Positions 29,648 to 41,963 of a stretch of DNA of 64,000 nt are shown piece after piece. Source of the DNA: Octopus vulgaris (lineage: Eukaryota). Below the pieces are notes generated by a model. It worked only from the letters and a program-made list of their open reading frames with translations, searched no databases and was not told the origin of the DNA. Location of the stretch: positions 28,334,001-28,398,000 of the forward strand of contig OX597837.1 of the NCBI GenBank assembly GCA_951406725.2, given 5' to 3'. Position 1 is the stretch's first letter. Every line of letters begins with the position of its first letter. The position numbers and the translations under genes were made by a program.

Positions 29648-29822
29648 CGCCATGATAGATCGTTAGCCACTACACACATTTTTTCTCTCCTTGATTCTCT
29701 CCTTGTTTTTTTCTGTGTCCCTTTCTGTGGAAGAGCGTAGGCTCGAAACGTAAAAGACTTTTTCTATTCCTGAGCGTTATACTAATACATCTTCGTCTTT
29801 TATTTTTTTCGTAAACTCTCCC
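29648..29822 (+). mobile_element. Short (about 180 bp) TA-flanked element with a variant hammerhead-like fold
   Basis: Homologous to 33830-34028 (-) and 41777-41963 (-); embedded in (TA)n. Confidence 0.75.
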
Positions 29823-30099
29823 TATATATATATATATATATATATATATATATATATACTGAGTCTAGTTTGTAACTCATCCTGCACCTCTTGTTTTAAC
29901 TGTCTTCGCACCTCACTTTTATTCTCTCTCTGTCTCCTTCCCTTTATACAGTGTAAAGCGTGACTGGAGAAATCTAGAGTTGGTCCTTAGCCTCGGTTAT
30001 CTGGCGGGAAGTATTAGACGGGGCATAATTATCAGCTTGGCTAAAACGACAGCCTCTATCGCAGGGAACCATCTCCAATCCGTTTAGTTATTTCTATCC

Positions 30100-30119
30100 T
30101 GCCACCTAGCGGCAGCAGA
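30100..30119 (-). promoter_or_regulatory. CTCF-like motif
   Basis: Minus strand TCTGCTGCCGCTAGGTGGCA(G) fits the CTCF core CCRSYAGRKGGCR. Confidence 0.45.
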
Positions 30120-30903
30120 CTAAATACAGGACTTGCCCCAAACTTGCAAAGTGCACAAACTGACCGAAAGCCAATGAAACGTATAGAACTGGTACGATTT
30201 GAACCTTCAGACTTGGTGGGAGAATTCGATGACAATTTACCTGGAACTAAACACCTGCTGCATAAGAATTGGTCAACTGCATAGTTGTAAAGAATTATTG
30301 GACATTGGAAGTCAGGTCGCGATAACTTGTGGCACTTAGTTACACCTCCCCTCCACACATACACACACCTCTTACGTTTTAAGTTCAAATGTTATATGCA
30401 ATGACCTTGCGTTTCACCAGACAATTTGGGATCGATCGATAAATCCCAGTTAAGTACTGAGGATTAATTTCAGTAACTGTACTCCTTCACCGAAATTTCT
30501 GGTCTTGTTTTCGTTTTTGGTGCAGTGTCGCAGCTAAAGTGTTTGCTCCTCGGGGTAGCTCTTGAGTTTGCAGTCCCTTATACAGGCATATACAGCAGCC
30601 CCTAAAGTGCAGCCTCTATAAAAGTACCGCCCCGGGGTAGATCGCCCCCATCGCCCCTAAACCTTAGCTATACAACAGTCTCTCGGTGCAAAGTTAGGAA
30701 TCTTTATTAAGACTCAAAACATGATAGTTGGTGAAGGACATAGCAAAAACGCTCAACAACAACACATTCTTAGCAGGAGATGCTATTTCAATGTTATTTC
30801 TGCTTAGGATGAAGAGAATGGTGATGCTGATAATGAAACGTGTGCAGCAGAAAAAGTTGCTGTTCATAAATAACAGGAATCTGGAATTAAGTCATTAATT
30901 TAT

Positions 30904-30923
30904 TCTGCTGTCGCTAGGTGGCA
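30904..30923 (+). promoter_or_regulatory. CTCF-like motif
   Basis: TCTGCTGTCGCTAGGTGGCA, 19/20 identical to the motif at 30100 and in the opposite orientation. Confidence 0.4.
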
Positions 30924-37346: not shown

Positions 37347-37620
37347 ATTATATAAAATCCGTTCTATTTGTCTCTGTGTGTGTGTCTTCTAGGATCTCGG
37401 GCATCCTGCATCCGATTGCGCTCAAATTTGATATGTAGATACCGACGGTATCAGGGCGTGTATAAATCTTGAAAAAATTACAAAAATCGATTCCGAGTGA
37501 GAATGCGATCGATAAAGCCATGGGAACGTGCATATGTACGCGCAAGTACATCAGCTGTTGCGATGTACTTACTGGTACTTTAAACTCTTCGGTTGCATAT
37601 TTGTGTGAATAAAATCGTTC
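37347..37620 (+). mobile_element. Possible non-autonomous Helitron-like 5' segment
   Basis: TATATAAAA start, short (TG/TC) microsatellite, then ATCTC..CCGATTGCGCTCAAATTTG, as in invertebrate non-autonomous Helitrons; no 3' hairpin-CTAG was identified. Confidence 0.35.
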
Positions 37621-40222
37621 TTCTTTGGAATAGAAAAAAGTCTATCTTTATTTCTTCTTTTGTTGGTGTCTCAAATTTAAGTTAAATCAGTGTTTCTCAA
37701 AGGGGAGGCCTATGGGACGGTCGGATAAGTTGTTTTGAGAAAATGTGTTTGACAACTCAGCACCGTCCATTGGAGGGGGGCGTTTTGCTCGTATATATAT
37801 ATATAATAGAGAGAGAGAGAGGGAGGGCGAGCGAGATGATGTATCTCTGTTGTCCTTCGACGATGCTGATTCAGCGGTTCGATCAACTAATCTACATGAT
37901 ATTGAGCTAACGTGTAAACGGGTGGGTATTCCTAAGGCATGTGATCCCTTAGCGTAACTCTCAGGAAGAATCTACGTGGCAAAGTGTGTGTATGTGTCAT
38001 TCATACATACATACATACATACATACATACATACATACATACGTACATACGTACATATATACATACACACACACACACACACACACACGTACAACTCTAA
38101 TAATTATGTTTCTGAAATTGAAAATATCCTATAATCAATCAGACAAGCATGTTAAAAAAGTGATGCAGTAAGCAATTATATTCGGTGCAAAATGCAGGAT
38201 TCTGCAACCTAGCGAAGAAAAGATTACATTAGATCGTTCTGAATTATTTGTCTCTTAGTCGTATAGTGCCAAATTTGACCAGATAACAATAAAAAGACAG
38301 TTTACAGTGGTATCTCCAACGCTTGGAAGACTTAGAACAGGCAGGATGTCTATCAATGGCTCAAATCTCATTCTACACGTCTGAAACATGTCCCCTAAAC
38401 TTTGAATATACACTCAGGCTTTGCAGTGGAAGATTTACGGTTATTATTGAGGATATCATTGTGAAACAGGCGTAGAAACACTTCCATAAGAAAATCTCTT
38501 CACATGTCTTACACCATTACCGAAATAAGAAGCAATAGTCTTGAATGATTTGGTCCTAGAATAAGAAGGCTACAGAATACGTAACGCTAGAAACCTCTCA
38601 CTTCCCAGAACACATGAGAGAGCAGTTAAGGTCTTGATGATCTCCCAATTCCCTGAAGACACAAGGTTTACTACTCGCAACAGTTGAGAACAGAGTTTTA
38701 GATGATAGTAACGGACTGGCGAGTAAGGGAGAAAGGACGTTTCGTGTGCACAGCTAAGTTTATAACCAACTGGAAAAAAAACTATAAGCGCGTTGTCGAA
38801 AATAAATAATTCACCTCTATATATATATATATATATATATATATATATATATATATATATATATATATATATATATATATATATATATATATATATAGAT
38901 AGATAGATAGATAGATAGATAGATAGATAGATAGATAGATAGATAGATAGATAGATAGATAGATAGATAGATACACTGACATATACACACGTGAGTGTGT
39001 GTGTGTGTGTGTGTGTGATCAGATCTGAACTCAGTACAGTAAGTTAAGTAGACACTCGTCAGGTTTACAGTGCTTCCCTCTGCTTAAAGTATTGACAAAT
39101 TTAGGATACGAACACACAATTTTTGTAACCGAAAGCTCAGCACTTATGTCATCCAGCTATTTTTGGTTAACGAAAGCCACACAAACACACACACTAGACG
39201 AAGGGGATTAAAATCCGAGTTGTATCTACAGGAAGCATTTCTGCGAATATTACTTATCAATTGTGTATCCCTAAAGGGTTTATATGAAAAAGAAAAAAAC
39301 TATTCATGCAGTCAAGAATTCTGGACCAGGTAAATTAGACGTAGAGTATGAATACATGAAATCAAAGGCTGGAATTTATAGTATTATCTTTAATTCTATA
39401 GTTACAATAGTTTCGATACAACATGGAAAAATCATTTCATGAGCATAAGTGTGTGTGTATGTATATATATATATATATATATATATATATATATATATAT
39501 ATATATATATACACATATGTATATATTTATAATAAGATTAGCTCGTATATATATATATATATATATATATATATATATATATATATATATATATATACTA
39601 AGTAATTAAGGGTTTAGCAACGATTTGCCTCACCACACACCGAATTTAGAAATAGCAGTCAAAGAGATTTGGCTATTCTTTCTACTTAAAAGGGAGATCC
39701 CAGTAAAACCACAGCACTTATATATATATAATGTTCATATTGTTATTAATATTTGTGGGTACGCAGGTGTATTGAAAATACCTCATGGAGTGCCGACCGT
39801 GTGCTGCATAGTTACAGGCTGCCCTTTGGCAAGACATAGCACCCGTTCAGCCACCCTGCCAGGATATGACGAAATCACGGGACCGTGAAAAGGTTGCAGA
39901 AGAGCTCAACTGACCCCTATGCTGCTTCTTACGTTGATGCTGAGCGAAGGACTCCTAGATGAACTATCAGGACCACCAAGCTTATCAAGAGAATAACTAC
40001 AATGCATCCATAGGGGGTGGCATCCATAGGGGTGGCATCCCATTTGTGTAATCAGCTAATGAAAGATTCAGTCATGACTCAAGCTCCCAATTTAATTTCA
40101 TAATGATAGAATTGGATGGTGACAAAGAGTCATGAGAATCCGCAAAAGCATATACACACGTGTGTGTGTGTGTGTGTGTGTGTGTGTGTGTGTGTGTGTG
40201 TGTGTGTGTGTGTAGCATATAT

Positions 40223-40447
40223 ACTTATTTCTTTATTACCCACAAGGGGCTAAACATAGAGGGGACAAACAGGGACAGACATAGGTATTAAATCGATTAC
40301 ATCGACCCCAGTGCGTAACTGGTACTTATTTAATCGACCCCGAAAGGATGAAAGGCAAAGTCGACCTCGGCGGAATTTGAACTCAGAACGTAGCGGCAGA
40401 CGAAATACCGCTGAGCATTTCGCCTGGCGTGCTAACGTTTCTGCCTT
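40223..40447 (-). mobile_element. SINE family C
   Basis: Reverse complement of the family C consensus. Confidence 0.88.
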
Positions 40448-41776
40448 ATATATGTGTAGCATATATACTATGTACATCTTCGTCAAAAAAATTAATATCC
40501 ATGTTTATGAAATGAGTTTCCAATGCTATACTGAAACAATTGTAGCTACTGAATTAACCTCCAGTCATCGATTTATTACATACATATACGAGTTAATAGT
40601 TTCAAAGAAAAAGTAACTCTTATTTCTTCATTGTGGATTCATACAATTATTTATTTTTCACATATATACATCTGATCACTCGAAGAATGCAGTCTATTCA
40701 CCTAAACTGATCCAGTATTTGATACGCTTAGCGTGTTGACCCCCATAGAAGCTTGAAAATCAAAACCAAACTTGATGGGGTACGAATTCAGCTTAAAGAA
40801 TCTTATGTAGACTTTATTAAATATTTTGTCCTGCATCCCACTTTTTGCCAGTCACAGCTCTCCCCTCATGTACCTGTAATTGTTGTGGTGATTTAAGCTC
40901 CTCATCTCTCAATTGTAAATATCGAAAAGTTATCATTGTTAAGCTATGAAACATACAATGCATATTCTATAAAAAAAACATTTATCACAACCAGGGTACA
41001 AACTATATACATGACTTAAACTCATTGTCAGGCGAGTTCTGGTCACGTCCTGTCTCTGACTGGTGACACATAACCAGGTCTAATGTTTCAGGATTCGGTA
41101 GTCAGTAAATAAAAACGACCACTGCAGTCCAGTTTATTGAACAAAGAGGATGCATGGGAACCCAAAAGGGTTTCAAATATACCAACCAAAAAGCAGAACT
41201 TCTCTCAAAGAAGCCAAAGATCGAATCTGTCTGGATAGGAGATAAGCAACAGTAAGTCAATAACACACAATATCGGACACCTTCAGATTCTTTAGGTTAA
41301 GCATTTTGGAAGAAATTCCATCGTTTTACCGAAACAAATGCAGTTGCAGAAGAGACACGAGTAATTTCAAATTGAAACACAGCATGATGTATTTCTGTGT
41401 TTTTAAAAGAAAACATTGGGGGAAGCCCAGGGTGGGGGCGATGCTGTTGCAGTTCATGGCTGGTTGATTTCATAGGCCGTCTGGTTTATGATAAGCATAT
41501 GGCGTTTAGAGTACTTTTAGCAGGGTCCTCCCTGTTTGCATGCATTCGGGCCCAGGATAAATATCTCCCTTCCTCCCGCAAATTTCACATTTAATCCTCC
41601 TCGGACTGAGTCATTATGTGTGTGTGTGAGAGAGAGAGAGAGGGGGGGAGAGAGAGACAGACAGAGAAAGACAGACAGACAGATCAAGATATGTTATATA
41701 AACGTACATAAAATATACATAATCTATCCGACTGTCTATCAAGAAAAGTCTACTTTCTAATGTATATATATATATA

Positions 41777-41963
41777 TATAGTATACGAAAATAAACAAAA
41801 GGGCGAAGGCAGGTGGAGTACAAACAAACAGATGTATTATTAGTATAGCGCTCAGGAATAGAAAAAGTCTTTTACGTTTCGAGCCTACGCTCTTCGACAG
41901 AAAGATACACAGAAAAAAAACAAGGAGAGAAAAATATGTGTGTAGGAGCTAACGATCTATCAT
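41777..41963 (-). mobile_element. Short TA-flanked element with a variant hammerhead-like fold (copy 3)
   Basis: Identical motif at 41868-41905. Confidence 0.75.

What the first reader, a model, noticed from the sequence alone, without database searches (positions are those of the whole stretch)
29648..41963. Multi-copy short element family with a non-canonical hammerhead core, sitting in (TA)n tracts
Seen: three near-identical copies of about 180 bp within 12 kb (29648 +, 33830 -, 41777 -), plus a related fragment at about 15457-15548, all abutting (TA)n. The two minus copies read UCUUU-CUGUCGA-A-GAGC(GUAG)GCUC-GAAA-CG-UA-AAAGA with perfect stems I and II and a palindromic stem III; the plus copy has core CUGUGGA. 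The normally invariant A6 is U in all three copies, so the change is family-wide rather than decay. No pol III boxes, TIRs or ORF are visible. Inference: a non-autonomous, PLE-mobilised, retrozyme-like family whose fold is either a variant ribozyme or a retained RT-recognition structure. This is the best candidate for an undescribed system in the window.
Basis: partly seen in the sequence, partly recalled or inferred. Interest (0 to 1): 0.72.

Follow-up and report, generated by a model that had tools for sequence, protein, structure and literature searches.

The report
Young Penelope retrotransposon with altered hammerhead
The three short repeats are end-pieces of a very abundant Penelope-type jumping gene that still has intact copies and whose hammerhead RNA motif carries U instead of the normally fixed A at position 6, a change predicted to weaken self-cutting, so the element likely spreads without needing an efficient cut.

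Summary
The three copies and their U6 hammerhead core are real, but they are about 90% alike and are not a free-standing retrozyme family. They are terminal-repeat (pLTR) stubs of an autonomous Neptune-type Penelope-like retrotransposon. Of 17 young tandem copies fetched, all carry U6 in both hammerheads and 6 keep an intact 1,069-1,086 aa RT + GIY-YIG frame. U6 is the family rule (168 A6 among 15,817 exact motif matches) and persists through every subfamily examined, while mainly the free positions N7 and N17 change. There is no stem covariation and no excess of copies starting at the cut. Stubs likely copy the uncut RNA front, from an internal UAUAU to the start zone. True retrozyme-like 456-509-nt tandem derivatives exist elsewhere in the genome, and their joints lie away from the cut site. 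The 15457 fragment belongs to a sister family, most of whose copies carry another core change (U4C). Cleavage is untested. The scan noted this family and U6 cores in other genomes before. Verdict: new variant of a known kind.

The parts
29648..29822 (+). pLTR stub, copy 1 (starts 77 nt upstream of C3; 23-nt deletion in the tail; (TA)n on both sides)
29721..29756 (+). Minimal type I hammerhead motif, copy 1: C3 29725, U6 29728, N7=G, stem II 29733-29744, predicted cut after A17 at 29752
   Evidence: numbering by the convention in PMC4209133
33833..34026 (-). pLTR stub, copy 2 (94% over 208 nt to the 3' end of RT-bearing copy L092)
33926..33963 (-). Minimal type I hammerhead motif, copy 2: C3 33958, U6 33955, N7 33954, N17 33931
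41784..41963 (-). pLTR stub, copy 3 (90% over 210 nt to L092; last ~12 nt of the tail missing)
41868..41905 (-). Minimal type I hammerhead motif, copy 3: C3 41900, U6 41897
15455..15549 (-). Tail fragment of a sister family (related but distinct; no hammerhead left), between (TA)n tracts
   Evidence: 88% over 102 nt to L237
29319..29623 (+). Older stub of a related family with a canonical A6 core (CUGACGA, C3 at 29493), just upstream of copy 1; boundaries approximate
   Evidence: 74% over 220 nt to L262

Best explanation
The three repeats are terminal-repeat stubs of an autonomous Neptune-type Penelope-like retrotransposon whose minimal hammerhead has U at position 6 throughout the lineage, and this motif likely cuts slowly or not at all and is likely kept as a folded RNA element rather than as a required cutter. 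Shown: a ~4.5-kb unit encodes one ~1,080-aa RT + zinc-linker + GIY-YIG protein, with the same U6 hammerhead in both pLTRs. Shown: stubs end where the element reads ...CCCGUUAUAUAUU and join genomic (TA)n, and their 5' ends cluster 40-89 nt upstream of C3. Inferred mechanism: the endonuclease nicks (TA)n, the nicked end pairs with the internal UAUAU, and the RT copies the uncut front of the RNA back to the transcription start zone, giving a ~180-nt stub. When the RT instead continues past the 5' end (template jump or RNA circle), it gives more-than-unit full copies and 456-509-nt tandem mini-elements. The joints of the mini-elements lie at the start zone, not at the hammerhead cut.
For: Autonomous element: 17 of 20 RT-selected loci carry the same tail downstream; 11 of 12 readable downstream cores are U6 and 1 is C6. 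In 17 young tandem loci, 34 of 34 hammerheads are U6 and 6 have an intact ORF; listed pairs are 97.0-99.8% identical over 3.8 kb. Pfam RVT_1 passes its cut-off, GIY-YIG is weak at E=0.006. DKG, YIDD, CX4CxxC and CxxC-LYIG motifs are present. U6 fixed: 168 A6 among 15,817 matches. In four sets chosen by flank only, 103 of 109 alignable cores are U6, 6 are C6 and 0 are A6 (120 loci examined). No variant reaches 5% at position 6 in contigs of four coded organisms. Motif retained: among seven subfamily majorities, 55 of 137 flank columns vary against 3 of 28 core columns. N7 takes A/C/G/U and N17 takes A/U/C by subfamily. Weak cutting expected: natural A6C cleaves at <0.1/min (PMC3088659), and mutants of the CUGA turn had low activity (PMC9901934). 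Uncut templates: 71 of 106 stub 5' ends lie 40-89 nt upstream of C3. TA-joined starts number 52 in the 30 nt that include the cut against 95 in the next 30 nt downstream (reverse-strand counts). Mini-element joints lie at about -43 to -68, joined to about +423. In another PLE, hammerhead mutants did not affect insertion in vitro and RT started internally (PMC11167929). The sister family also spread with a CUGA-turn change, U4C in 76 of the first 100 of 11,240 matches.
Against: No cleavage assay and no raw RNA reads. Keeping G8, G12, the C3-G8 pair and a non-G at 17 is also what a still-working ribozyme would show. PLE hammerheads can be protein-assisted (PMC11167929) and A6C is rescued by Mn2+ (PMC7151607). 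A circle made by cutting at two hammerheads would leave no visible joint, so the more-than-unit copies (5' extensions of 266-1,994 nt in 15 of 15 long copies) do not exclude rare cutting. The fold is not supported by covariation or folding energy (z 0.14 to 0.83 for the three copies), so the constraint could be on sequence. The cut-site test also showed no clear spike in the canonical sister subfamily (dominated by TA microhomology), so its power is low. Some groups were chosen through the core pattern. The transcription start zone is inferred from ends only, with about 10 nt uncertainty.
Confidence: 0.65

Rival explanations
1. U6 is a working variant ribozyme. [quoted passage not shown]
For: All other core letters are fixed across subfamilies whose flanks differ by 22-42%, and N17 is never G at subfamily level. 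All 15 long copies exceed unit length, as the circle model of PMC4209133 predicts. Protein-assisted cleavage is known in a PLE and Mn2+ rescues A6C.
Against: No excess of copies begins at the cut. Mini-element joints lie away from the cut. Chimeras between sister families at the hammerhead are very rare: 1 and 2 matches. Position-6 mutants are weak in published assays.
Confidence: 0.2
2. The hammerhead is a dead relic. The 38-nt block is conserved only as sequence, for example as part of the internal promoter or a protein-binding site, and no hammerhead fold is under selection.
For: Stem II and even loop II are invariant with no compensatory change: double changes that stay paired occur in at most 2 of 109 copies per pair. 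Only 33 genomic matches change both 10.2 and 11.2, about 12 of them paired by my count. Folding z-scores are unremarkable. The block lies just downstream of the inferred start zone.
Against: The core positions that change between subfamilies are N7 and N17, the two that are free in hammerheads. A sequence-only constraint has no reason to pick these two. With only a few changes this is suggestive, not proof.
Confidence: 0.1
3. One reading: the ~180-nt copies are their own non-autonomous retrozyme-like family that propagates as a unit.
For: The stubs have a fixed 3' end and clustered 5' ends. Real tandem mini-elements derived from this pLTR exist at 22 loci, 8 of them with two or more hammerheads, and two loci share one 481-nt unit.
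Against: The stubs are monomers with ragged 5' ends. They grade into copies that reach the ORF and fall into the same ladder of subfamilies as long copies. The window holds none of the mini-element 5'UTR.
Confidence: 0.05

Closest known systems
Neptune-clade Penelope-like elements (C-terminal GIY-YIG; Craig et al. 2021, PMC8557442; passages and supplement part 54 read)
   Same: Single ORF with RT (DKG, YIDD), a long CX4CxxC linker and C-terminal GIY-YIG; pLTRs, partial tandems, heavy 5' truncation, inverted stubs (L007, L382), (TA)n targets
   Different: The pLTR hammerhead has U6 in the whole lineage. The clade was assigned by motif comparison, not by a tree with reference elements.
Minimal type I hammerheads (min-HHR) of metazoan PLEs (Cervera and De la Pena 2014, PMC4209133; parts 1-2 of 4 and supplement file 2 part 2 read)
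   Same: Short stem I, extra nucleotide after A9, G10.1-C11.1, palindromic 15.2/16.2 with no helix III, one motif per pLTR
   Different: Their consensus is CUGANGAH and every row that I saw in their alignment has A6. The core variant they describe is U3-A8. Here A6 is U, stem II is 4 bp, and the motif is invariant rather than highly variable.
Natural A6C hammerhead of phage Bcep176 (Perreault 2011, PMC3088659, section 8 and passages; Naghdi 2020, PMC7151607, part 1 of 4)
   Same: Natural substitution at core position 6
   Different: A single phage motif with C, assayed (slow in Mg2+, better in Mn2+). Here it is U, in more than 23,000 copies of a retroelement, and unassayed.
Animal non-LTR retrozymes (Cervera and De la Pena 2020, PMC7229834, passages; Li, Clavereau and Pollet 2026, bioRxiv 10.64898/2026.07.22.740005, part 1 of 5 and passages)
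   Same: The 456-509-nt tandem derivatives elsewhere in the genome are non-coding head-to-tail repeats with one type I hammerhead per unit, derived from a pLTR
   Different: The window copies are monomeric stubs. The tandem derivatives have a minimal U6 motif and varied joints away from the cut; circular RNA is not shown.

Membership tests
EN+ Penelope-like element | Single ORF with PLE-type RT and GIY-YIG endonuclease | tested here: met
   6 of 17 fetched copies have a 1,069-1,086 aa ORF; RVT_1 above cut-off, GIY-YIG E=0.006 below cut-off; 46-56% identity to 8 chosen homologues
EN+ Penelope-like element | pLTRs from partial tandem arrangement, with a hammerhead motif in each | tested here: met
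   17 of 17 loci have two hammerheads; 15 span 4,036-4,563 nt; L129 read in full
EN+ Penelope-like element | 5'-truncated copies with a fixed 3' end | tested here: met
Neptune clade | C-terminal EN with a long CX2-5CxxC linker (reduced in Nematis, absent in Penelope/Poseidon) | tested here: met
   CSRPRCRTC at 836, about 30 aa before the GIY motif at 876, like the Neptune rows of Fig. S2
Neptune clade | RT phylogeny with reference Neptune elements | not tested
Minimal type I hammerhead ribozyme | Stems I and II, G12-A13-A14, A15.1-U16.1, H17, extra base after A9, palindromic 15.2/16.2 | tested here: met
Minimal type I hammerhead ribozyme | Core C3-U4-G5-A6-N7-G8-A9 | tested here: not met
   Position 6 is U in 103 of 109 flank-selected copies and A in 0; A in 168 of 15,817
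Minimal type I hammerhead ribozyme | Covariation in stems | tested here: inconclusive
   None within the U6 lineage, where the stems are invariant. Different paired stems occur among A6 families of the same genome.
Minimal type I hammerhead ribozyme | Self-cleavage after N17 | not testable with these tools
   No raw reads; genomic footprint shows no excess at the cut
Non-LTR retrozyme | Non-coding tandem repeats with a hammerhead in at least two consecutive units | tested here: not met
   Window copies are isolated monomers. The feature is met only by derivatives at 8 other loci.
Non-LTR retrozyme | Expressed as circular RNA through self-cleavage | not testable with these tools
   Only contigs of runs guessed to be RNA were available

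The most novel reading that the evidence does not exclude
A recently active Neptune lineage has carried a hammerhead with a crippled uridine turn (A6U; U4C in its sister) through its whole traceable history and still makes more-than-unit copies and new retrozyme-like tandem arrays by joining the RNA's start to a downstream end. The PLE hammerhead would then be a fold recognised by the element's protein rather than a required cutter, and animal retrozymes could be born without ribozyme cleavage.
Probability: 0.35. Interest if true: 0.72.

Novelty: new variant of a known kind. Interest (0 to 1): 0.5.

Why it matters
Why Penelope-like elements carry hammerheads is stated as unclear in PMC8557442. 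This family gives a natural test pair: an intact, young element with a core change predicted to weaken cutting, next to sister families with canonical and U4C cores in the same genome. With one descriptor, non-A6 motifs outnumber A6 motifs here (24,105 against 13,866), so CUGANGA searches would miss most of them. The tandem mini-elements with varied joints appear to catch retrozymes being born from a pLTR. The host element and the minimal motif are known kinds, activity is unmeasured, and the scan has seen the U6 core before, which caps the score.

Tried and rejected
Rfam: none of the 150 listed matches (of 279) was a hammerhead; all were microRNA models on simple repeats. No RNA holder listed with raw reads, so expression, RNA ends and circles were not tested. 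Contigs of four runs only guessed to be RNA cover the element front and show 5'UTR-to-start-zone joints in two runs, but these may be genomic and are not used as evidence. Single-strand folding gave no signal. Old copies with seemingly compensatory stems (L183, L190) turned out to be single decayed members of a subfamily whose majority has the usual stem II. Copies with A6 are scattered over subfamilies, not a basal clade (27 changes among 43 A6 rows; rough tree with 139 columns). Cut-site footprint: no spike for U6. The canonical GGCUGG-stem family seemed by eye to have more starts at 1.1-1.3 (about 15 of 100 rows), but this was not scored by script. The ORF of the sister family was not found in 10 fetched regions; L458 is a segmental duplication, so the origin of U6 could not be dated against that family or against shark elements. 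Lunse et al. 2017 is not held; I saw only its title and a review's summary, and it could list U6 variants. Nine literature searches and supplement searches found no natural A6U PLE hammerhead. One supplement file of PMC4209133 could not be searched, figure-only supplements give no text, the supplement of PMC9901934 was listed but not read, and bioRxiv supplements are closed. Repbase and Dfam could not be checked, so the element itself may already have a name.
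Full report
Observation. The window holds three copies of a ~180-nt repeat at 29648-29822 (+), 34026-33833 (-) and 41963-41784 (-). They are 89-92% identical. Each carries a minimal type I hammerhead layout: stem I, CUG-U-N-GA, an extra A, GAGC(GUAG)GCUC, GAAA-CG-U-A, stem I'. 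Position 6 is U in all three. The extra A, G10.1-C11.1 and the palindromic 15.2/16.2 are normal for PLE minimal hammerheads (PMC4209133). The fragment at 15457-15548 does not match the three copies by BLAST; it is the tail of a sister family (88% over 102 nt). A canonical A6 motif of another related family lies at 29493. The genome has 2.8 Gb with about 30 large contigs. I take it to be an octopus from that and from earlier scan notes; this is an inference.

What the repeat is. Genomic copies share the 3' end and differ at the 5' end. Walking upstream from 30 copies chosen by their upstream flank gave two that share over 1.4 kb and reach RT, thumb, zinc-linker and GIY-YIG sequence. Of 20 loci chosen by RT sequence, 17 carry the same tail downstream; 12 downstream cores were readable, 11 U6 and 1 C6. 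L129 is a complete tandem with U6 in both pLTRs. A search with the sequence that follows the 5' pLTR gave 40 matches, and I fetched 17 of them, chosen as members of the youngest group. All 34 hammerheads are U6, 6 copies have an unbroken 1,069-1,086 aa ORF, and listed pairs are 97.0-99.8% identical over 3.8 kb. Pfam finds RVT_1 above cut-off and GIY-YIG at E=0.006. The linker CX4CxxC lies about 30 aa before the GIY motif, as in the Neptune rows and unlike the short Nematis rows of Fig. S2 of PMC8557442. The repeat is therefore the pLTR of an autonomous, recently mobile, likely Neptune-clade element.

U6 is the rule. The pattern with positions 6 and 7 free has 15,817 exact matches and 0 for the reversed control; 168 have A6. 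A pattern with stem II free gives 23,504. One descriptor finds 24,105 non-A6 against 13,866 A6 motifs. In four sets of 30 loci chosen by flank only, 109 of 120 had an alignable core: 103 U6, 6 C6, 0 A6. This includes the oldest subfamily found. A6 copies are scattered on a rough flank tree. Contigs from four coded organisms show no change reaching 5% at position 6, but do at N7, N17, two CpG letters and the outer stem I pair.

Is the motif still constrained? Among seven subfamily majorities, 24 of 44 upstream and 31 of 93 downstream columns vary, against 3 of 28 core columns (Fisher p=0.002). One of the three is position 6, an artefact of my placing A6-selected rows in one group, and several groups were chosen through the core, so the p-value is generous. 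The flank-selected sets agree: majorities differ only at N7, N17, the outermost stem I base and one CpG letter that decays in the oldest set. N7 takes all four bases and N17 takes A, U or C, the freedoms a hammerhead allows. Against this, stems and loop II are simply invariant, with no compensatory change, and folding energy is unremarkable.

How the stubs likely arise. In tandem copies the sequence after the pLTR reads TTCCCGTTATATATT and then runs into the 5'UTR. Stubs stop at that spot and join (TA)n (45 of 59 against 22% background). Their 5' ends cluster: 71 of 106 lie 40-89 nt upstream of C3, 12 closer and 23 further (boundaries good to about 10 nt). I infer priming at the internal UAUAU on a nicked (TA)n and copying to a start zone in the pLTR. 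Internal RT initiation on AT-rich nicks is shown for a Poseidon element (PMC11167929). The idea that stubs copy the uncut RNA front, and the cut-site test below, came from earlier scan notes.

Does it cut? Untested. Natural A6C cleaves at under 0.1/min (PMC3088659) and prefers Mn2+ (PMC7151607); CUGA-turn mutants had low activity in a full mutational scan (PMC9901934). If the RNA were often cut, copies should start after N17. TA-joined starts number 52 in the 30 nt that include the cut and 95 in the next 30 nt downstream (reverse-strand counts, because forward counts repeat each locus), so there is no excess. The canonical sister subfamily showed no clear spike either, so the test is weak. Chimeras between the two families at the hammerhead are rare (1 and 2).

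More-than-unit copies and mini-elements. All 15 long copies extend 266-1,994 nt upstream of the 5' hammerhead and match their own 3' end at 91-100%, so the RT passed a whole unit and went on. Two of the 17 loci have units of only 481 and 566 nt. A search across the 481-nt joint gave 41 matches from the best 40 of 311 candidates; 33 span the joint, at 22 loci by my count. Eight loci have two or more hammerheads 456-509 nt apart, and one has at least five units. The joints link the 5'UTR near +423 to differing points at about -43, -56, -58 or -68, inside the stub start zone and far from the cut at +27; the joint was read in only some of the 30 loci. Within an array the joint is the same in each unit. 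These are retrozyme-like in layout (PMC7229834; bioRxiv 2026.07.22.740005), and their joints were not made at the ribozyme site. The window contains none of their 5'UTR.

Sister family. The family behind the 15457 fragment has 11,240 exact matches, and 76 of the first 100 carry U4C (counted by eye). Two related lineages thus spread with changes in the CUGA turn. Its coding region was not found.

Comparison and novelty. The element works like, and by the tested features is, an EN+ PLE, likely Neptune. The motif has the layout of a PLE minimal hammerhead but fails the A6 feature, so I do not file it as a proven ribozyme. I found no natural A6U PLE hammerhead in nine searches or in the alignment page read, but Lunse 2017 and Repbase were out of reach. 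The Octopus vulgaris repeat paper lists active Penelope families and has no occurrence of 'ribozyme' or 'Neptune' in its main text (PMC13282606). Passages of PMC11014351 and PMC6155905 added nothing on position 6. Earlier scan notes report this family in this genome and U6 cores in other genomes, including a likely shark; I did not test the latter. The RT's named homologues include shark proteins at 55-56%, which leaves shared origin or convergence open.

Verdict. Observation partly confirmed, interpretation partly supported. New variant of a known kind, interest 0.5. The identity as PLE stubs is close to certain; the weak or dispensable cut is an inference at about 0.65.

Noticed in passing
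window 29319-29623 (+): Older PLE-type stub with a canonical CUGACGA core directly upstream of copy 1; two families landed in the same (TA)-rich spot.
   Followed up: partly
L419, L468-L497 (for example G000:C8:18600317-18602528): Retrozyme-like tandem mini-elements of 456-509 nt built from the element's front, with varied joints at the inferred start zone and U6 hammerheads.
   Followed up: partly
sister family, for example L075, L117, L156, L237: 11,240 exact matches, about three quarters with U4C; 5' ends cluster about 75-80 nt upstream of C3; no ORF found in 10 regions, so it may be non-autonomous.
   Followed up: partly
L034:1661 and L154:1503: Chimeras between the U6 family and the sister family with the crossover inside the hammerhead; rare in the genome.
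   Followed up: partly
L235-L263: Another abundant family with a canonical core and a long GGCUGG stem II; several copies fold back or start near the predicted cut.
   Followed up: partly
window 19012-19146 (-): Short fragment similar to the PLE protein (38% over 45 aa), probably another old PLE.
   Followed up: no
window 14353-14885, 47461-47903, 58187-58555, 59106-59586, 60110-60546: Tandem 181-190-nt units of an abundant dispersed repeat; it resembles an octopus tRNA-derived SINE as recalled, not checked.
   Followed up: no
window 1708-2094, 11525-11910, 56059-56446: Three copies of a 387-nt repeat at 97-98% identity, a young family not examined.
   Followed up: no
window 41857-41927 (-): U6 allows an alternative U4-G5-U6 pairing with A15.1-C-G in the predicted fold, which could hold the core in an off state; the ensemble is diffuse.
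   Followed up: no
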